DNA of 64,000 bases from an uncultured Desulfobulbaceae bacterium (GTDB lineage Bacteria; Desulfobacterota; Desulfobulbia; Desulfobulbales; BM004), in contig CAMYKS010000004.1 in assembly GCA_947259115.1 (NCBI GenBank), positions 2,810 to 66,809 of the forward strand. The letters run 5' to 3'. Under the pieces are notes generated by a model. The model searched no databases. It was not told the origin of the DNA and saw nothing but the letters and a program-made list of their open reading frames with translations. This document shows, piece after piece, positions 52,701 through 59,203 of this stretch (the stretch's first letter is position 1; each line of letters begins with the position of its first letter). The position numbers and the translations under genes were made by a program.

Positions 52701-52783
52701 TTATGTTATAGTTAATAAGAATTAATACCATTCAGTGACCCATGAAGTTGCTGCAGAGCAGTATATATGTGGAGGTACTCGCC

Positions 52784-53314
52784 ATGACCGGAAGAATAAA
52801 TGATATATTGAACAGACGTAATAGCTTATTCATTTTATTTGTATCAGTTCTTACACTTATTATGCTGGCAGGTTTTGCTTTAGCAGCCAACATTTACGGG
52901 ACACTGGACAGAGACAGGGATCTTGACAACTTGTTCCGTAACTATGAAGTGCTGCAAGATCATAACTATTATGTAAGCGGTGGCTATGATAGACCAAATG
53001 CAATCCTGTTAATCCACAAGGACTATGAACTGGACAATCCAGGAAATCTTTGGGTACCATTTCCTTATGTTGATTACAACCAGATGAGAAAATGGGTTTA
53101 TGTCATAAGTTCCGAGCAGGATGCTGATAGGTCAGGTGGTTATTACGCTGCCTACATCCTTGACCAGGATGGCAAAAGAGTTGGTGTGTGGTATTCAGTT
53201 GAGGTTTTTACAACTGTGAAATTTCTCGCAGGAAACAAGATCCAGGTATACACACCGGAGCTGAACCAGAATTCTATCCTGAGTAAATTTGACGAATCAG
53301 AATATAGATTTTAA
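52784..53314 (+). CDS. hypothetical membrane-anchored/secreted protein
   Basis: GGAGG 8 nt upstream of the ATG at 52784. N-terminal hydrophobic helix LFILFVSVLTLIMLAGFALA. No family recognised. Confidence 0.5.
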   Translation: MTGRINDILNRRNSLFILFVSVLTLIMLAGFALAANIYGTLDRDRDLDNLFRNYEVLQDHNYYVSGGYDRPNAILLIHKDYELDNPGNLWVPFPYVDYNQMRKWVYVISSEQDADRSGGYYAAYILDQDGKRVGVWYSVEVFTTVKFLAGNKIQVYTPELNQNSILSKFDESEYRF

Positions 53315-53668
53315 TCGGCTGATGTTGGTAGGGTGACAGGTAACCGCTTTTCAGTCTGCATAGAAAAACGGGTTCACATGTTATTCCGCCCCGGGGCAAG
53401 TAATGCTCTATATCCTTTATGAGAGGAAAGATCCGCCTTCGGTAAGCAAAAAGCAAAACAGCCCTCTACGAGTCTCTATTTTGCGACACCCAAAAACGCA
53501 ATTAAACTCCCCGCGCCAAGCCACGGGGTATCTTCTGGTACAACAGAACTGCTTTATTGTGGCTTTTGTGAATGTAAATACTCATCCAACCCAATTAGCA
53601 CTTTAGTTAATATGAGGCAAGCCGCGGGGTATTACCCTAAGCCGGTAATAAAACCCAATGGTATCGTA

Positions 53669-55018
53669 TTATGATTTGAAAAGAGCTGGAATAATCTGAT
53701 GGCGATTCAGCAGTTTATAAAAATCTGTGCGGTTACGATTGGCTATACGAGCAGCCTGTGACACATTACCCTGGGTTGTCTGCAGGAGCTTTATGAGATA
53801 TTGCTGTTCAAACTGACGTCGGGCTTCTGACAGGGGGACTATCTTCTTCTGATGCTGCTTTATTGCATCATGCAAGAGGTCCTCAGTAATGAGCGGCGAG
53901 GTGGCAAGAGCACATGCATTCTCTACCACATTGTACAATTGACGGACATTCCCGGGCCAGGCTGCATCCACCAGAATCCGCATTGCATCAGGCGCAATCC
54001 TCTTAACTTGTTTCCTGTTCTCACCGGACAGGATTTCAACAAAATATTCCACCAGAAGCGGTATATCCTCCTTGCGCTCATGCAAGGGAGGAAGGTTAAG
54101 ACTCACGACATTGAGCCTATAAAAAAGGTCCTCCCTGAACTGCTTGTGCTCAAGAGCTTCTTCCAGGTTTCTGTGTGTTGCGGAGATAATACGGACATCC
54201 ACAGGAACCGGCGTTGTACTACCCACAGGCCTTACCTGCTTTTCCTCCAGGACTCTGAGCAGCTTTACCTGGAGATGCAGTGGCATATCACCGATCTCAT
54301 CGAGAAAAAGTGTTCCTTTGTTCGCGGCCTGGAAAAGTCCAAAATGGCTTTTCAAAGCACCCGTAAAAGACCCCTTGGAATGACCAAACAGTTCCGACTC
54401 AAGCAGTGCTTCCGGGATAGCTGCACAGTTGACCGGGACAAATGGCTTGTCCCTGCGGCTGCTTGCCCTATGAATAGCAACGGCCAAAAGTTCCTTGCCG
54501 GTACCGCTTTCTCCTCGTATAAGCACAGTCGAGTCTGTATCAGCCACCAAATAAGTCCTGGAAAGAAGTTCCTCCATGGCAGCACTTTTGGAAATAATAT
54601 CCCTGCGCCACTTATTACTATCATTCTGCGGTAGAGTGCCACCGGTTGAAAAGTGCAACGCTTTCTCAGTTTCGAGAATAAGATCCTTGCCGTCAATTGG
54701 TTTAGTAAGAAAACTAAAAACTCCCTTTTTCGTCGCCTCAACAGCCTCTGGAATAGAGCCATGGGCGGTAATTATAATCACAGGAATAACCTTGTTCCTT
54801 TCCCGAATCGCCTCAAAAAGAGCCATGCCGTCTATCCCCTGCATGCGCAGATCAGTAAGCACAACATTGGGATTGATCAGTGAGAATTTCACCAGGGCTT
54901 CCTCTCCGCTGAGCGCCGTGGTAACCTCATAACCATTGCTCTCAAGTCGTAATTTCCACAGGCTGAGCAAATCCGCCTCATCATCAACAAGGAGTATTCT
55001 GTTGCTTTTTCTATTCAA
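53669..55018 (-). CDS. sigma54-dependent response regulator (NtrC family; GlrR/QseF-like)
   Basis: Receiver (ILLVDDEADLL..VLTDLRMQGIDG), AAA+ domain (GESGTGKE, ESELFGHSKGSFTGA), C-terminal Fis-type HTH. Its start overlaps the stop of the lipoprotein gene. Confidence 0.9.
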   Translation of the reverse strand: MNRKSNRILLVDDEADLLSLWKLRLESNGYEVTTALSGEEALVKFSLINPNVVLTDLRMQGIDGMALFEAIRERNKVIPVIIITAHGSIPEAVEATKKGVFSFLTKPIDGKDLILETEKALHFSTGGTLPQNDSNKWRRDIISKSAAMEELLSRTYLVADTDSTVLIRGESGTGKELLAVAIHRASSRRDKPFVPVNCAAIPEALLESELFGHSKGSFTGALKSHFGLFQAANKGTLFLDEIGDMPLHLQVKLLRVLEEKQVRPVGSTTPVPVDVRIISATHRNLEEALEHKQFREDLFYRLNVVSLNLPPLHERKEDIPLLVEYFVEILSGENRKQVKRIAPDAMRILVDAAWPGNVRQLYNVVENACALATSPLITEDLLHDAIKQHQKKIVPLSEARRQFEQQYLIKLLQTTQGNVSQAARIANRNRTDFYKLLNRHQIIPALFKS

Positions 55019-55647
55019 GGCTGCTCCGTCTCCCTGCTTTTAATAATATTTTCAATGTTCTTTAACTGTCCGATCTGTTTCTTCAGCTCCACGATCTGTT
55101 CTTGCAACTCCTCGTTCAAAATCTGATCCTTCTTAATCTTTCCCTGTAAGGTTTCAACTTCTGAGGTGAGTTTCTTTTTGTCTTCAAGCAGCGTTTTCCA
55201 GGCACTCCATTTGTTCAACATTTCTACATCAAGCCAATCAACAAGAATTTTGAATCCCTGAATATCATCTGTGGAGTTAGGGTGTTCAGCTATGTATTGT
55301 TCAAGCACCTCCCGACCCTGCTTAAACTGCTGATAGTCAGCCTGTGCATCTAAACTCAAGCATATAAAGTGTAATTTGTACAGGTCTTGACCATACTGGA
55401 GTCCATCTTCAGCCATTTTGAAATTAGCAGCAAACTCCTCAGGACCAATGCCTTGTATTTCGTTCAAGCACGACAAAACATAAGTAGTCACATTCAGTTC
55501 CGGAAGGTTCCCCGATTCTGGATCGAGCTGCGCCAGTTCCGGGCTGGGCTGCACCAGTTCCAGGCTGGACTGCCCCAATTCAGCACATCCTCCCAGCAGC
55601 AACACACAGACAAGCATCAAAATGTTTATTTTCACGACGTTATTCAT
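55015..55647 (-). CDS. lipoprotein encoded between kinase and regulator (QseG/YfhG-like position)
   Basis: MNNVVKINILMLVCVLLLGGC lipobox and a C-terminal coiled coil. 4-nt overlaps with both neighbours. Confidence 0.7.
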   Translation of the reverse strand: MNNVVKINILMLVCVLLLGGCAELGQSSLELVQPSPELAQLDPESGNLPELNVTTYVLSCLNEIQGIGPEEFAANFKMAEDGLQYGQDLYKLHFICLSLDAQADYQQFKQGREVLEQYIAEHPNSTDDIQGFKILVDWLDVEMLNKWSAWKTLLEDKKKLTSEVETLQGKIKKDQILNEELQEQIVELKKQIGQLKNIENIIKSRETEQP

Positions 55648-57086
55648 CCTGACAGTGGCAGAGTCACTAGAAAACGGGCACCCTTCTTGCTGGCCAACAG
55701 ACGAAGGGATCCATCATGATTCTGCACATATTCTTTACTTATTGCAAGGCCAAGGCCAGAACCCTTGACCACGGCCTTTTCTGATCTTTTACCCTGAAAA
55801 AAAGGTGAGAAAATCTGAGAGCGATCTTCATCAGCAATACCAGGGCCACTATCCTCTACAAGACAATGCGCATGTTTACCATCGATTTTTAGTCTTATAC
55901 GAATAATTCCTTGATCCGGAGTAAATTTCACCGCATTGGACACAAGGTTGTCAAAGACAGTTCTCAGCTGATTCCGGTTCCCGTAAACTTCCATGGTACC
56001 AAGCTTAATGTCAAGTTCAATATTTCGGGCCAGAATGGAATTGCGCTGATCAGCCACTATCTCACCAATGAGTTCATCTAATTTAATTTGATTTTTTTCA
56101 GAAGGAATGTCCCTGGCTTGAGCCATATTGAAATTTAGGATATTTTCAATAAGTTTCTGCAATTTCAAACAATTCTTGTCCAGAATCTCGACTATCTCTT
56201 TCTGGTTGCTATTCATGGGGCCGACAAGTTCATCACGGAGTAAACTCGCCCCCTCTTTAATGGAGGCCAGGGGTGTTTTTAAATCATGCGATATATGGGC
56301 TACCAACTTTATTTTTTCTTTGTCCAATTTTGTAAGACGTTTTCTCAGCCAGTCCAGTTTCTTGCCGAGGTCATGCAGGTCTTTCGGGCCTGAAATATCA
56401 ACAGGTGTTGTAAAATCTCCATCACCAAGGCGTTCTATTCCTTTGTTAATTTGCCTGATGGGCCTGGAGATGAGTGCCATAAATATAACGATAAGGAGGA
56501 CTGTAAAAGAAAGCAAACGAGAGGCCTGCCAGATAAGTTTTTCTTTGTCCTGATTAACTTTCAGCTTCAGCGCTTCCACCTCATCAAGCATCAACTGATT
56601 ACTCGATTTTTCAATGGATCTGGCTAAGCTGGTAAGATCCTTATATAGGGAAAGAACCTGTTCCTGCTCTTCTTTAATGAGCTCAGGATCCCCGGCTGCA
56701 TCTTTATTTAAAACAGCTAAAATGTGGTTTTCCTTGAACTTCAGTTCCTCAATCAATTGCGGCAGTTGTTCGTCGCTTTTAAAAGAAAGAAGGTACTCCA
56801 GTGCCTTTTCAATATCCAGATGGGTATTGTTCAGTTCAAGAAGTTGAGCCGGATCACCAAGAACATTATATACTCTTGCCTTACGTTCCTCATCCTGGAG
56901 AAGTTCAGCTACCTTTCTACTACTTGTTACCATATCAACAGAACGATAAACGGCAACATTGCTCTGCACCATCAAGCCGTCCAGAATCTGCACTGAACTG
57001 TACAGGGCCGTGAGCAAAGGCAGGGAGACTAAAAGAAAGCCTGTAAGTAAAAGAGCAAAGAAGGAGTGCGGTCTATATATTCTCAT
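55644..57086 (-). CDS. sensor histidine kinase, TM-periplasmic-TM-HAMP-HisKA-HATPase (GlrK/QseE-like)
   Basis: 480 aa. ISGPKDLHDLGKKLDWLRKRL, H-box HISHDLKTPLASIKEGASLLRDELVGPMNSNQKEIVEILD, GSGLGLAISK. Confidence 0.85.
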   Translation of the reverse strand: MRIYRPHSFFALLLTGFLLVSLPLLTALYSSVQILDGLMVQSNVAVYRSVDMVTSSRKVAELLQDEERKARVYNVLGDPAQLLELNNTHLDIEKALEYLLSFKSDEQLPQLIEELKFKENHILAVLNKDAAGDPELIKEEQEQVLSLYKDLTSLARSIEKSSNQLMLDEVEALKLKVNQDKEKLIWQASRLLSFTVLLIVIFMALISRPIRQINKGIERLGDGDFTTPVDISGPKDLHDLGKKLDWLRKRLTKLDKEKIKLVAHISHDLKTPLASIKEGASLLRDELVGPMNSNQKEIVEILDKNCLKLQKLIENILNFNMAQARDIPSEKNQIKLDELIGEIVADQRNSILARNIELDIKLGTMEVYGNRNQLRTVFDNLVSNAVKFTPDQGIIRIRLKIDGKHAHCLVEDSGPGIADEDRSQIFSPFFQGKRSEKAVVKGSGLGLAISKEYVQNHDGSLRLLASKKGARFLVTLPLSG

Positions 57087-57643
57087 TCATCATTACCTAC
57101 CGAAACACTTGGCTTAATTGAATATTCGCAGGGCAGAAGACAAGAAACTTTTCATCCACTCCCAAAAGGCATAACAGCTTATGAATTGTATCAAATAACG
57201 CATTAAAAAATGCATGGATATATAAATAGTAACTTATTTAAAACAGTAAACCAAGAGTCTGATTCCAGACTAAGAAACACCGTCTTATGAAGAACGTAGC
57301 AACAAAACAGCCAAGGGCCCAGCAAAAAGGGGCCATGCTGTTACACTGAACCCCATGGTATACAATGATATCATATTATAGCACCACCCCATAAAGTGGG
57401 ATTGTCCATTCAGCCACAATTTCTTTCATATGAATACCCTGCTGCAAAACTCCTGCCACCGATTATTACACCGCATCGTTACGTGTCCACTTTTACTGAA
57501 TTGATCTGCTGTTCCCGGCTTTTTTATTAATTTCATTTCAGAACTCCTCACTGCTCCAATAAAATTATATACGGGATAATCAATACACCTCTCTGCATTT
57601 TTTTAGGATAGAGTAACAGTGAGGAAAACAAAAAAGTCTTTTC

Positions 57644-57665
57644 TGTCTGTTGCCCAAAACAGACA
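57644..57665. promoter_or_regulatory. perfect palindrome TGTCTGTT-N6-AACAGACA, candidate enhancer (UAS) for a sigma54 activator
   Basis: 8-bp arms with a 6-bp spacer, centred ~100 bp upstream of the sigma54 -24 element at 57753. Confidence 0.55.
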
Positions 57666-57751
57666 CTTTTGCTTTTTCTGCCCCTGGCAGCAACCTCAGC
57701 ATATTTATTTTTTATAATAATATCTGACAGATGACCCATCCTTAATTATAT

Positions 57752-57767
57752 TGGCATAGTCCTTGCT
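57752..57767 (+). promoter_or_regulatory. sigma54 (-24/-12) promoter
   Basis: TGGCATAGTCCTTGCT fits TGGCAC-N5-TTGCW, with GG and GC at exact 10-nt spacing. The intergenic region is divergent from the sigma54-activator operon. Confidence 0.7.
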
Positions 57768-57929
57768 AATTACCATATAGAGAGCCTGGTATGAACCCTT
57801 TTTACCGGCGCCTAAAAGTAGTCTGTACAAGCCTCATCAACAATAAAAGCAGTCTATTCAAACAGCTGCATCAATCTTGAAAATTCAATGAAGAGCAAAT
57901 CAAAGGCATTGGAAAGATAATGGGATATG

Positions 57930-57955
57930 GGACTGTCTCAAAAATGAGACAGTCC
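57930..57955 (+). other. perfect 10-bp-stem hairpin/palindrome GGACTGTCTC-N6-GAGACAGTCC (contains TGTC-N10-GACA)
   Basis: Lies ~155-180 nt downstream of the predicted sigma54 start site and ~110 nt upstream of the 57-aa ORF. No U-tract follows. Confidence 0.6.
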
Positions 57956-58062
57956 AGTGAAAAGAGAAAATAAATATGGGCCTGAGAATACGAAGACTGG
58001 AGCTGGAACAACGTTAATCATGGCATATCAACAAATACTTTACTGGTAAGGAGGGTTTTCAA

Positions 58063-58236
58063 ATGGCTGAACTGATCAAACCTCAAAGAGATGTCTCGGC
58101 AGAAGATATTTTAATGACAAGGATCGTTGTCTACCAGGCTCTGATTGACATCCTGATTGCCAAGCAGGTCATTTCCGAAGCAGAACTGGTGCACTGCATT
58201 GGGAGAATCAGGCTTGAGCAGGCGAATTTGAAATAA
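58063..58236 (+). CDS. 57-aa hypothetical protein, absent from the ORF track
   Basis: AAGGAGGG 8 nt upstream of the ATG at 58063. Translation is MAELIKPQRDVSAEDILMTRIVVYQALIDILIAKQVISEAELVHCIGRIRLEQANLK. Confidence 0.5.
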   Translation: MAELIKPQRDVSAEDILMTRIVVYQALIDILIAKQVISEAELVHCIGRIRLEQANLK

Positions 58237-58456
58237 TATGAATGGGGATGAGAGACATGAAAAAGTGACTACATAAAATGAGCCGCTTACCTCACCCTTC
58301 CTAAACTTTAAATATACATTTGAGTTAAATTTGATGAACCGACGAAAAAACAATGCTACCTCTGTTATTTTTTCAAAAAATGCCAGGACCGGAAATAGAA
58401 ACTAAATGCAGCAACTGAGTAACAAATTTTATTTCATTTAATAAAGGATGATTCGT

Positions 58457-59203
58457 ATGAAAGAGCAGATGAAAAGAATAAAGTTTATCGAAGTTGATTC
58501 GGAATACCTGAAAAAGGAAGTCTATAAGCTTCGCTATGATGTTTATGTCAATGAATTTGGCTTTGAAAAACAAGGGGACCATCCTGCAGGCCTGGAAATG
58601 GATATATATGATCCCCATTCAGTAGAATTGGCAGCAATAGAACAGATAAATGCCGAAAGGCAAAAGATTATAGGCACCATACGACTTATTCTCCATTCAG
58701 AGCATGGCTTCCCAATTGAAAATGCAGTTCCAATTGGCTTCACAGGCAAAAAGCCATCAGTGGATAAAATTGCCGAAATTTCCCGTCTTGCCATCAGTAA
58801 GGAGTATCGCCGTCGCCAGGGTGATGGTCTCTATGGTGCCAAATCATTTCGAAAGGTGTCTGAAGATGGGGGGCTTGCCGATTGTGGCAGGATACAAAGT
58901 GAAAAGGTCAAGATACAGCCATACCTTATATTGGGATTATTCAAAGAAATGTATCAAGTAAGCAAAAAAATGGGGATCACACACTGGTATATGATAACAG
59001 AAAAGAAACTCTGGTATGCCCTGAAACGATTTAATTTAATCTTTAGCCAGATTGGAGAACCTATAAATTACCATGGCCTGAGAATTCCATACCTTGGAGT
59101 TGTTGCAGAAATTGAACAGCATCTAAGGGAAAAACATGTAGACTTGTACAAGGATTTTCTGGTTGGGCTTGATAAGCAGTATTGGCCGGCGGAGGCATGT
59201 TAG
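58457..59203 (+). CDS. GNAT-fold N-acyl amino acid synthase-like acyltransferase (family linked elsewhere to PEP-CTERM/exosortase systems)
   Basis: VYKLRYDVYVNEFGFE, DIYDPHSVELAA, IGTIRLIL, AEISRLAISKEYRRR, at ~250 aa. AAGGA lies upstream of the ATG at 58457. Confidence 0.65.
   Translation: MKEQMKRIKFIEVDSEYLKKEVYKLRYDVYVNEFGFEKQGDHPAGLEMDIYDPHSVELAAIEQINAERQKIIGTIRLILHSEHGFPIENAVPIGFTGKKPSVDKIAEISRLAISKEYRRRQGDGLYGAKSFRKVSEDGGLADCGRIQSEKVKIQPYLILGLFKEMYQVSKKMGITHWYMITEKKLWYALKRFNLIFSQIGEPINYHGLRIPYLGVVAEIEQHLREKHVDLYKDFLVGLDKQYWPAEAC

What the first reader, a model, noticed from the sequence alone, without database searches (positions are those of the whole stretch)
57644..58236. Consensus sigma54 promoter with upstream palindrome, a TGTC-N10-GACA hairpin and a hidden 57-aa ORF, divergent from the activator operon
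TGGCATAGTCCTTGCT (57752-57767) is a near-perfect -24/-12 element. About 100 bp upstream lies the perfect palindrome TGTCTGTT-N6-AACAGACA, the expected distance for an enhancer-binding-protein site. In the transcribed leader a perfect 10-bp-stem palindrome contains TGTC-N10-GACA, the half-site spacing reported for enterobacterial GlrR sites as I recall it. It could be a second activator site or an RNA stem-loop. In enterobacteria GlrR drives the small RNA GlmY, so the ~290-nt leader may itself be a regulatory RNA. Alternatively the promoter serves the RBS-equipped 57-aa ORF (58063-58236, missed by the track) and the downstream acyltransferase. The track's 58111-58353 minus-strand ORF overlaps and is probably spurious.
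Basis: partly seen in the sequence, partly recalled or inferred. Interest (0 to 1): 0.7.

Follow-up and report, generated by a model that had tools for sequence, protein, structure and literature searches.

The report
Sigma-54 promoter for unannotated small gene
This is a real enhancer-dependent (sigma-54) promoter with binding sites for the neighbouring GlrR/QseF-like regulator, and it switches on a previously unannotated 57-residue protein gene from a widespread, uncharacterised family; it is a sound but fairly ordinary regulatory region, not a GlmY-like small RNA.

Summary
All four described elements are present at the stated coordinates. TGGCATAGTCCTTGCT (57752-57767) is the only 7/7 sigma-54 match in the 64-kb window. 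The same motif lies in the sense orientation upstream of about 20 of 69 non-redundant homologues of the 57-aa ORF, against 0 of 69 on the antisense strand. The ORF is a real gene: 568 homologues, a confident two-helix model, no Pfam or PDB relative. The overlapping minus-strand ORF is broken by stop codons in close relatives. The divergent operon (kinase, lipoprotein, sigma-54 regulator) has the E. coli glrK-qseG-glrR gene order. Its regulator is 53% identical to GlrR, with a nearly identical recognition helix. The hairpin TGTCTCAAAAATGAGACA is the only perfect TGTC-N10-GACA box in the window. Orthologous Desulfobulbales regulators carry pairs of the same TGTCTC-N6-GAGACA boxes upstream of sigma-54 promoters. 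I therefore read the hairpin as an activator site in DNA, although it lies about 164 bp downstream of the start site, inside a clade-specific leader insertion. The upstream palindrome holds a one-mismatch box at about -122. The GlmY-like RNA idea finds no support: no Rfam match, no terminator, no consensus fold. Verdict: a new member of a known kind, moderately interesting.

The parts
57752..57767 (+). Sigma-54 (-24/-12) promoter TGGCATAGTCCTTGCT; inferred transcription start near 57778
   Evidence: Only 7/7 match in the window. Kept as TGGCACAATCCTTGCT or TGGCATAATCCTTGCT in relatives. A 7/7 motif lies sense-upstream of about 20 of 69 non-redundant homologous small-ORF loci, against 0 antisense.
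57644..57665 (.). Palindrome TGTCTGTT-N6-AACAGACA. It contains the one-mismatch GlrR-type box TGTTGCCCAAAACAGACA (57648-57665), centred about -122 from the inferred start.
   Evidence: The box register TGTT-N10-GACA is kept in L008, but the outer palindrome is not. Its position matches E. coli glmY ABS3, about -125.
57930..57955 (.). Perfect 11-bp-arm palindrome holding the GlrR-type box TGTCTCAAAAATGAGACA (57934-57951), centred about +164 in the transcribed leader. Most likely an activator binding site; it would also form an RNA hairpin.
   Evidence: Only zero-mismatch box in 64 kb. Invariant in all five relatives. Lies in a leader segment absent from all other family members. Same TGTCTC-N6-GAGACA form as the boxes next to orthologous regulators. 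RNA hairpin -19.4 kcal/mol.
57778..58062 (+). 5' leader of about 285 nt for the small ORF, with no terminator. A possible anti-Shine-Dalgarno pairing joins 57794-57808 to 58043-58057.
   Evidence: No terminator-like site on the + strand here. No Rfam family. Duplex -23.7 kcal/mol, z -4.4 in the window, but z -2.0 and -1.2 in the closest relatives and about 0 elsewhere.
58063..58236 (+). 57-aa small protein gene (RBS GGAGG at 58050-58054), unannotated, member of an uncharacterised helical-hairpin family
   Evidence: Seven close homologues and 568 by profile. 114 cluster representatives, all 37-103 aa. AlphaFold pLDDT 88 with two helices. No Pfam, PDB or fold match.
58448..59203 (+). N-acyl amino acid synthase-type acyltransferase (TIGR03694, PEP-CTERM/exosortase-associated); probable second gene of the transcript (likely start 58457)
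   Evidence: TIGR03694 179.8 bits against a cutoff of 112. Pfam FeeM and Acetyltransf_5. The small ORF-acyltransferase order recurs in L007, L013, L017, L034 and L053.
55644..57086 (-). Sensor histidine kinase, GlrK/QseE-like
   Evidence: HAMP, HisKA and HATPase_c domains. 32% identity over 415 aa to E. coli GlrK, E 1e-65.
55015..55647 (-). Lipoprotein (lipobox LLLGGC) in the position of QseG
   Evidence: Translation. No sequence similarity to E. coli QseG. Conserved at 35-60% identity in the same position in orthologous operons.
53669..55018 (-). Sigma-54-dependent response regulator, GlrR/QseF orthologue (D56, GSFTGA loop, Fis-type HTH)
   Evidence: Best NCBIfam hit is GlrR at 582 bits, with the next family at 406. 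53% identity over the full length to E. coli GlrR, with a near-identical recognition helix. GSFTGA and the phosphorylation site confirmed.
53471..53488 (.). Further GlrR-type box (minus strand TGTCGCAAAATAGAGACT, one mismatch), 181 nt downstream of the regulator gene
   Evidence: Identical to the first box after the regulator in L003. Orthologous loci carry box pairs at this position.

Best explanation
The region is the control region of a sigma-54-dependent transcript that starts near 57778 and encodes a 57-residue helical-hairpin protein, probably with the downstream N-acyl amino acid synthase.

Proposed mechanism:
1. RNA polymerase with sigma-54 binds TGGCAT-N5-TTGCT (57752-57767) as a closed complex.
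2. The divergently encoded two-component system senses an envelope signal. It consists of a GlrK/QseE-like kinase, a lipoprotein and a GlrR/QseF-like regulator.
3. The phosphorylated regulator binds TGTC-N10-GACA boxes. The perfect box is at 57934-57951. A weaker box sits inside the upstream palindrome at 57648-57665.
4. By DNA looping across an A/T-rich stretch, the regulator's AAA+ domain opens the promoter.

Shown here: the sequence elements; family-wide conservation of the promoter; the reality of the gene; the orthology and conserved DNA-reading helix of the regulator; and the recurrence of the same box next to orthologous regulators.

Inferred: binding, activation, the start site, use of a box that lies downstream of the start site, and co-transcription of the acyltransferase. 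The function of the small protein is not known.
For: Promoter:
- It is the only 7/7 match in the window.
- It is conserved, with changes only at non-critical positions, in L005 and L008.
- A 7/7 motif lies 60-300 nt sense-upstream in about 20 of 69 non-redundant loci that encode homologues. The antisense strand has 0 of 69, and the background rate is 0.004 per 400 nt.

Gene:
- 568 homologues of matching length.
- A strong RBS.
- pLDDT 88.
- The antisense ORF is broken in relatives.

Regulator:
- GlrR is by far the best NCBIfam hit (582 bits against 406 for the next family).
- It is 53% identical to E. coli GlrR, and the recognition helix RNRTDFYKLLNRH compares with RNRTEFYKLLSRH.
- The kinase is 32% identical to GlrK.
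- The gene order is the same as glrK-qseG-glrR.

Boxes:
- The published consensus is TGTCN10GACA (PMC3045617).
- The hairpin box is 14/18 identical to E. coli ABS3.
- Among all small-ORF loci, perfect boxes occur only in the clade that has the GlrR orthologue. Sister loci with a different kinase carry TGTAT-N8-ATACA instead.
- Orthologous Desulfobulbales operons (L094, L095, L096, L093, L003) have pairs of TGTCTC-N6-GAGACA-type boxes directly after the regulator gene. In L095, L096 and, more weakly, L094 these are followed by a sigma-54 promoter.
- The one-mismatch box in the palindrome sits at about -122, close to E. coli ABS3 at about -125.
Against: - The best box lies about 164 bp downstream of the inferred start. 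In E. coli the boxes are at -125 to -221. In L094-L096 they are at about -197 and -264. No second sigma-54 promoter exists between 57600 and 58460 to make the box upstream of anything.
- The box is also a perfect 11-bp hairpin in the transcript, and its invariance cannot separate a DNA role from an RNA role.
- No IHF-like site (one mismatch or fewer) lies between the sites and the promoter in the window.
- The regulator scores below NCBIfam's equivalog cutoff (582 against 763).
- Within-clade conservation is near the neutral level.
- There is no transcript or binding data.
Confidence: 0.7

Rival explanations
1. The hairpin at 57930-57955 works as RNA, not as a protein-binding DNA site. It would be a stable stem-loop in the 5' leader that affects mRNA stability, processing or translation, perhaps together with the long-range pairing that buries the ribosome-binding site. 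Only the upstream palindrome would then serve the activator.
For: The stem is 11 bp and perfect, at -19.4 kcal/mol, and forms in both the MFE and the centroid folds of the leader. The leader folds better than shuffles (z -2.9). The 57794-57808 to 58043-58057 duplex is -23.7 kcal/mol with z -4.4. The arms extend beyond the TGTC/GACA core. The site lies downstream of the start, which is unusual for an enhancer site.
Against: The sequence matches the recognition box of the adjacent regulator exactly, including the extended TGTCTC/GAGACA form found next to orthologous regulators, where those boxes lie in DNA upstream of promoters. The hairpin lies in a segment absent from every other leader of the family. 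The anti-SD pairing is weak in the closest relatives and absent elsewhere. No covariation is available.
Confidence: 0.2
2. The GlrR-type boxes do not serve the + strand promoter. They serve autoregulation of the kinase-lipoprotein-regulator operon from the sigma-54-like sequence TGGCAGGAGTTTTGCA on the minus strand (57458-57443). This might include a GlmY-position small RNA ending at the stem-loops 57334-57316 or 57271-57256.
For: A GG-N10-GC match with TTGC lies 357 nt upstream of the kinase start. GG and GC are kept in L008 as GGGCAGGAGTCTTGCT. Two stem-loops with U-rich tails follow. The arrangement mirrors glmY-glrK in E. coli. The 196-nt stretch folds with z -2.35.
Against: The match is only 6/7, and six such matches occur in the window, mostly inside genes. 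Conservation there is at the neutral level. Sister loci and orthologous operons have no sigma-54 promoter, no boxes and no conserved sequence upstream of the kinase gene. There is no Rfam GlmY or GlmZ match at E<=10. The 136-nt version folds no better than shuffles (z -0.12).
Confidence: 0.08
3. The roughly 285-nt leader is itself a trans-acting regulatory RNA, analogous to GlmY, and the ORF is incidental.
For: GlrR drives small RNAs in enterobacteria (PMC3045617). The leader is long, and parts of it (57980-58062) are as conserved as coding sequence.
Against: No Rfam match. No terminator before the ORF. The ORF has a strong RBS and hundreds of homologues of the same length. RNAalifold finds no consensus structure. 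Leader length varies from about 48 to 290 nt across the family.
Confidence: 0.04

Closest known systems
E. coli glmY control region (GlrK/QseE-QseG-GlrR/QseF; three TGTCN10GACA activator sites, IHF sites, sigma-54 promoter)
   Same: The regulator is orthologous (53% identity, near-identical recognition helix). The kinase-lipoprotein-regulator gene order is the same. The box consensus is the same, and the window's box is 14/18 identical to ABS3. The promoter class is the same. The weaker box sits at about -122, like ABS3 at about -125.
   Different: The target is a protein-coding small ORF (plus an acyltransferase), not a small RNA. The target is divergent from the kinase operon rather than upstream in the same orientation. 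There are two boxes, not three, and the perfect one lies downstream of the start. There is no recognisable IHF site and no overlapping sigma-70 promoter. The lipoprotein is not sequence-similar to QseG.
Control regions downstream of GlrR orthologues in other Desulfobulbales (loci L093-L096, L003)
   Same: Regulators 79-90% identical. The same TGTCTC-N6-GAGACA boxes. Sigma-54 promoters.
   Different: There the boxes come in pairs 62-67 bp apart, at about -197 and -264. They lie after the regulator gene and drive a family of secreted proteins of 145-176 aa. The window keeps only one such box (53471-53488) and lacks that gene.
PEP-CTERM regulatory system (PrsK, PrsR, TPR lipoprotein PrsT; upstream motif 1 plus a sigma-54 motif before single-gene operons; Haft et al. 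2006, PMC1569441)
   Same: Kinase, lipoprotein and sigma-54 regulator together. Long intergenic regions with an activator motif, a spacer and a sigma-54 promoter in front of short, often single-gene units. The downstream acyltransferase belongs to the PEP-CTERM/exosortase-associated family TIGR03694.
   Different: The regulator scores far better as GlrR (582 bits) than as PrsR (382 bits). The small protein has no signal peptide and no PEP-CTERM tail. The activator motif differs: motif 1 ends in TTTACA. No exosortase gene was seen among the neighbours that were scanned.
Sister loci of the same small-protein family (L013, L014, L017, L018, L023, L026, L034, L053, L069, L079, L080)
   Same: A homologous small ORF and a partly homologous leader. 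A 7/7 sigma-54 promoter. In L013, L017, L034 and L053 the same acyltransferase lies downstream. In L013, L034 and L053 a divergent kinase is present, and in L034 it is followed by a TPR/YfiO-like lipoprotein.
   Different: The activator sites are TGTAT-N8-ATACA, one or two copies at about -100 and -185, followed by an IHF-like AACAACAAGTTA. The kinase is only 24-28% identical. The leader lacks the segment of about 110 nt that carries the hairpin.

Membership tests
Sigma-54-dependent promoter | -24 GG and -12 GC elements with exact spacing, close to TGGCAC-N5-TTGCW | tested here: met
   TGGCATAGTCCTTGCT, 7/7 on my scoring, unique in the window.
Sigma-54-dependent promoter | Element conserved in front of orthologous or homologous genes | tested here: met
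   Kept in L005 and L008. About 20 of 69 non-redundant homologous loci have a 7/7 match on the sense strand, against 0 of 69 antisense.
Sigma-54-dependent promoter | A cognate enhancer-binding protein with an intact sigma-54 contact loop | tested here: met
   The divergent regulator has Sigma54_activat and AAA_lid domains, a GSFTGA loop and D56.
Sigma-54-dependent promoter | Transcription start about 12 nt after the GC, dependent on rpoN | not testable with these tools
   Needs 5' RACE or dRNA-seq in wild type and an rpoN mutant.
GlrR/QseF regulon (GlrR-type activator sites) | Regulator is a GlrR orthologue | tested here: inconclusive
   GlrR is the best NCBIfam hit at 582 bits, but this is below the equivalog cutoff of 763. 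Identity to E. coli GlrR is 53% over the full length, with the recognition helix nearly identical. Public annotations of close homologues call them GlrR.
GlrR/QseF regulon (GlrR-type activator sites) | Kinase-lipoprotein-regulator operon | tested here: met
   The order is the same as glrK-qseG-glrR. The kinase is 32% identical to GlrK. The lipoprotein is not similar to QseG in sequence.
GlrR/QseF regulon (GlrR-type activator sites) | TGTCN10GACA boxes near the promoter | tested here: met
   One perfect box at 57934-57951 and one with a single mismatch at 57648-57665. The consensus is from PMC3045617. The same boxes lie next to orthologous regulators.
GlrR/QseF regulon (GlrR-type activator sites) | Boxes lie upstream of the promoter (about -100 to -270) | tested here: inconclusive
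   The one-mismatch box is at about -122, which fits. The perfect box is at about +164, which does not.
GlrR/QseF regulon (GlrR-type activator sites) | IHF site between boxes and promoter | tested here: not met
   No WATCAANNNNTTR match with one mismatch or fewer in 57600-57960. L008 has one, TATCAAATATATG. The window has only an A/T-rich tract, 66% A+T.
GlrR/QseF regulon (GlrR-type activator sites) | Regulator binds the boxes and activates transcription | not testable with these tools
   Needs EMSA or footprinting and reporter assays.
GlmY/GlmZ small RNAs | Match to the Rfam GlmY_tke1 or GlmZ_SraJ covariance models | tested here: not met
   No match at gathering threshold in the window, and none at E<=10 in 57000-58500 on either strand.
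GlmY/GlmZ small RNAs | Discrete transcript ended by an intrinsic terminator | tested here: not met
   No terminator-like site on the + strand between 57778 and 58447.
Small-protein family of the 57-aa ORF (unnamed) | Homologues of matching length with a conserved core (ALIDILIAKQIISEEEL) | tested here: met
   The two-helix model has pLDDT 88.
TIGR03694 PEP-CTERM/exosortase-associated acyltransferase (N-acyl amino acid synthase) | Score above the curated cutoff | tested here: met
   179.8 bits against a cutoff of 111.95. Pfam FeeM and Acetyltransf_5.
PEP-CTERM regulatory system (PrsK/PrsR/PrsT) | Regulator matches the PrsR model; target proteins carry a PEP-CTERM tail | tested here: not met
   TIGR02915 scores 382 bits against a cutoff of 502.6, well below the GlrR score. 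The small protein has no signal peptide and no C-terminal sorting motif.

The most novel reading that the evidence does not exclude
The perfect GlrR box inside the transcribed leader is a true downstream enhancer. The activator would then work from about +164, and the same 26 nt would also form a hairpin in the mRNA, so that one element acts on both transcription and the transcript.

The 57-residue protein would belong to a large family of sigma-54-controlled small regulators of cell-surface or biofilm functions in sulfate-reducing sediment bacteria. The family is wired to different enhancer-binding proteins in different lineages. In some lineages it is encoded next to an HU/IHF-like protein, a PilZ protein and a VpsR-like activator. 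[quoted passage not shown]
Probability: 0.2. Interest if true: 0.6.

Novelty: new member of a known kind. Interest (0 to 1): 0.42.

Why it matters
- The GlrK/QseE-lipoprotein-GlrR/QseF system has been studied almost only in enterobacteria, where it drives glmY and rpoE. [quoted passage not shown]
- The analysis adds a real gene that annotation missed and removes a spurious one.
- It defines a family of more than 500 small proteins whose most consistent feature is a sigma-54 promoter. That gives a starting point for finding out what they do.
- If the leader box is functional, it would be a natural case of an enhancer-binding site downstream of the start site.

Tried and rejected
- **GlmY/GlmZ or any known RNA family.** Rfam gave nothing at gathering threshold on the window, or at E<=10 on 57000-58500.
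- **A conserved leader structure.** RNAalifold on 11 homologous leaders predicted no pairs. Anti-SD pairing is strong only in the window itself.
- **A second sigma-54 promoter that would place the hairpin upstream.** None exists between 57600 and 58460 on either strand.
- **A minus-strand sigma-54 promoter or small RNA ahead of the kinase.** The match is 6/7, as common as chance, and has no counterpart in sister or orthologous loci.
- **The palindrome as an intrinsic terminator.** The scan flags it, but no + strand transcript arrives from upstream.
- **A 36-aa minus-strand ORF at 57534-57426.** It starts inside a 121-nt insertion that L008 lacks, so I rejected it.
- **A 9-codon upstream ORF at 58020-58049.** It is kept only in the window clade and has no RBS. 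The homologous block in other leaders is not an ORF.
- **Repeats or mobile elements.** The clade-specific segments have no other copies.
- **A fold or family for the small protein.** No Pfam, PDB-sequence or Foldseek-PDB match. The afdb50 library was unavailable.
- **The genome-contig scan with the kinase.** It gave only one useful relative, L003, whose contig ends inside the kinase gene and so does not include the intergenic region.
- **The source organism.** It could not be named. Close homologues are from Desulfobulbaceae and Desulfobacterales MAGs.
- **Craig et al. 2011 on NAS/PEP-CTERM linkage.** The paper is not held.
Full report
**1. Observation.**
- The sigma-54-type motif TGGCATAGTCCTTGCT lies at 57752-57767.
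- The palindrome TGTCTGTT-N6-AACAGACA lies at 57644-57665.
- A perfect palindrome, GGACTGTCTCA-AAAA-TGAGACAGTCC, lies at 57930-57955 and holds TGTC-N10-GACA at 57934-57951.
- An ATG ORF lies at 58063-58236, preceded by GGAGG at 58050-58054.

A loose promoter pattern is not enriched in the window (18 found, 15.3 expected). A stricter score (T-GG-C-A-Y ... T-T-GC-W) gives 7/7 only for this site in both strands of the 64 kb. TGTC-N10-GACA occurs once in the window against 0.62 expected, so by itself it is not significant.

**2. Surroundings.**
On the minus strand lies an operon of three genes:
- a HAMP/HisKA/HATPase kinase (55644-57086);
- a 210-aa lipoprotein with lipobox LLLGGC (55015-55647);
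- a receiver, sigma-54-AAA+ and Fis-HTH regulator (53669-55018).

This is the gene order of E. coli glrK-qseG-glrR.
- The regulator's best NCBIfam model is GlrR at 582 bits, with the next family at 406. This is below the equivalog cutoff of 763.
- It is 53% identical to E. coli GlrR over the full length. Its recognition helix RNRTDFYKLLNRH compares with RNRTEFYKLLSRH. It keeps D56 and a GSFTGA loop.
- The kinase is 32% identical to GlrK.
- The lipoprotein shows no similarity to QseG, but it is conserved in the same position in orthologous operons.

Downstream of the small ORF is a 251-aa acyltransferase. It passes the TIGR03694 cutoff for PEP-CTERM/exosortase-associated N-acyl amino acid synthases. 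Close homologues of the regulator come from Desulfobulbaceae and Desulfobacterales MAGs. The rest of the window is rich in multihaem cytochromes.

**3. The 57-aa ORF is a gene and the overlapping ORF is not.**
- The ORF has seven close homologues of 57-75 aa and 568 by profile search.
- It has 114 cluster representatives at 50% identity, all 37-103 aa.
- The core ALIDILIAKQIISEEEL is nearly invariant.
- AlphaFold gives a confident two-helix hairpin, pLDDT 88.
- There is no Pfam, PDB-sequence or Foldseek-PDB relative.
- The 80-aa minus-strand ORF at 58111-58353 carries in-frame stops in L005, L007 and L008.

**4. The promoter.**
Three related lineages keep the GG and GC elements: L005, and L006/L008/L009. 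L008 is even closer to consensus, at TGGCACAATCCTTGCT. Divergence within this clade is near neutral, with third-position identity of 0.81-0.87 against 0.67-0.93 across the intergenic region. The stronger test therefore used 80 metagenomic loci that encode homologues of the small protein.

About 20 of 69 non-redundant loci have a 7/7 motif 60-300 nt upstream on the sense strand, and 32 of 69 have at least 6/7. On the antisense strand the counts are 0 and 1. The background rate is 0.004 per 400 nt. One or two of the sense hits come from loci cut at the ORF and should be discounted. Sigma-54 control is thus a property of the whole family.

The activator sites differ between groups:
- TGTAT-N8-ATACA, in one or two copies, followed by an IHF-like AACAACAAGTTA, in the group closest to the window;
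- TTCCGGA repeats in another group;
- further motifs elsewhere.

**5. The two palindromes.**
The published GlrR consensus is TGTCN10GACA (PMC3045617). I read the three E. coli sites directly from the glmY upstream region.

The window's hairpin box TGTCTCAAAAATGAGACA is 14/18 identical to E. coli ABS3 (TGTCGCTAAAAAGAGACA). Among 334 kb of fetched loci, perfect boxes occur only in the window clade, in E. coli, and once elsewhere.

I then fetched orthologous regulator operons with 79-90% identity. In L094, L095 and L096 the regulator gene is followed directly by a pair of boxes of the same extended form, such as TGTCTCCACGATGAGACA, TGTCTCCGCATGGAGACA and TGTCTCCTGGTGGAGACA. The boxes are 66-67 bp apart. 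About 170 nt further on lies a sigma-54 promoter (TGGCATGAAACCTGCT in L095 and L096; a weaker TGGCACGAAAAGTGCG in L094), followed by a secreted protein of 145-176 aa. L093 and L003 have one-mismatch pairs. The window has the same first box as L003 at 53471-53488.

This validates the box for this regulator clade and makes the hairpin a strong candidate binding site. The upstream palindrome has half-sites spaced N14. It contains TGTT-N10-GACA (57648-57665), and this register is the one kept in L008. Its centre is about -122, close to ABS3 at about -125.

**6. The difficulty.**
The perfect box is centred about 164 bp downstream of the inferred start. It lies in a leader segment of about 110 nt that is present only in the window clade. 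No other sigma-54 promoter lies between 57600 and 58460. No IHF-like site is present, only a tract of 66% A+T.

From general knowledge, enhancer-binding proteins act by looping and can work from downstream positions (Reitzer and Magasanik 1986, and the Caulobacter ftr elements; I did not check these sources here). Natural cases are uncommon. The element would also form a -19.4 kcal/mol hairpin in the mRNA. An RNA role therefore remains a live rival, and invariance cannot decide between the two.

**7. The regulatory-RNA idea.**
- Rfam finds nothing.
- No terminator lies between the promoter and the acyltransferase gene.
- RNAalifold finds no consensus structure in 11 homologous leaders.
- The long-range pairing that hides the RBS is strong only in the window itself.
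- A minus-strand sigma-54-like site (57458-57443), in the position where E. coli has glmY, is only 6/7 and no rarer than chance. It has no counterpart in sister or orthologous loci.

**8. Conclusion.**
- Its kind is known.
- Its target, its host lineage and the placement of its best activator box are new.
- What the small protein does is unknown.
- Its neighbours elsewhere point loosely to cell-surface or biofilm regulation. In some loci these are an HU/IHF-like protein, a PilZ protein and a VpsR-like activator. In others, the acyltransferase follows.

Noticed in passing
window 53471-53488; L094 7881-7964; L095 7890-7974 and 8137-8152; L096 2154-2238 and 2401-2416; L093 7933-8016; L003 2031-2110: GlrR-type boxes sit directly downstream of the regulator gene in every orthologous operon examined. 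They usually come in pairs 62-67 bp apart. In L094-L096 a sigma-54 promoter follows, and then a family of secreted proteins of 145-176 aa (motif SFSWRANPPEDNVIGYRLYYG). The window keeps one box but lacks that gene. A convergent 190-aa ORF (52742-53314, no Pfam match) lies there instead.
   Followed up: partly
window 57443-57458 (minus strand), 57316-57334, 57256-57271: A 6/7 sigma-54-like motif, TGGCAGGAGTTTTGCA, points at the kinase operon and is followed by two stem-loops with U-rich tails. This is the position where E. coli has glmY. It is no rarer than chance and is not seen in related operons.
   Followed up: yes
window about 57502-57622: A 121-nt stretch is absent from the L006/L008/L009 lineage. 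It moves the palindrome from about 100 to about 220 bp away from the minus-strand motif. No other copy was found in the window or in the fetched loci.
   Followed up: partly
L013 1932-1949 and 2015-2032; L014 433-450 and 515-532; L034 2611-2628 and 2693-2710; also L018, L023, L026, L053, L069, L079, L080: Sister loci of the small-protein family carry a different, well conserved activator palindrome, TGTAT-N8-ATACA. It sits about 100 bp upstream of the sigma-54 promoter, often with a second copy 82 bp further up. An A/T tract and an IHF-like AACAACAAGTTA follow. The adjacent kinase there is only 24-28% identical to the window's. In L034 it is followed by a TPR/YfiO-like lipoprotein.
   Followed up: partly
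L071 2950-5747; L057 3001-3620; L059, L068, L044: In another branch of the family the small ORF is followed by an HU/IHF-family DNA-binding protein (95 aa). In L071 a PilZ-domain protein and a VpsR-like sigma-54 activator come next. This hints at a link to sigma-54 and c-di-GMP or biofilm regulation.
   Followed up: partly
window 57794-57808 with 58043-58057: A 15-bp pairing (AACCCUUUUUACCGG with CUGGUAAGGAGGGUU) would bury the ribosome-binding site of the small ORF: -23.7 kcal/mol, z -4.4. It is much weaker in L005 and L008, and absent in other family members.
   Followed up: yes
window 58020-58049: A 9-codon upstream ORF (MAYQQILYW) ends in the TAA just before the Shine-Dalgarno sequence. 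It is kept in the window clade (L005, L007, L008) but has no RBS of its own. The homologous block ATCATGGCnT in other leaders is not an ORF.
   Followed up: partly
L013, L014, L084 and other group-1 leaders (alignment A3 columns 105-125); window 57905-57932: Group-1 leaders share the block GTCATTGGATGAAATCAGTCTAG, a short hairpin with GGA in its loop, and a second GGA lies in the Shine-Dalgarno sequence. This resembles CsrA/RsmA-type sites. The window lacks this block but has three GGA motifs just before the hairpin. This is speculative.
   Followed up: no
window 53517-53531 and 53618-53632: Two copies of a 15-nt direct repeat (minus strand ATACCCCGYGGCTTG) lie between the regulator's stop codon and the GlrR-type box. 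This segment is not present in L003, where the box follows the stop codon after 39 nt.
   Followed up: no
window 58237-58282: The first 45 nt or so after the small ORF's stop codon (TATGAATGGGGATGAGAGACATGAAAAAGTGA...) are almost invariant across the clade, more conserved than the rest of the 211-nt spacer before the acyltransferase. No explanation.
   Followed up: no
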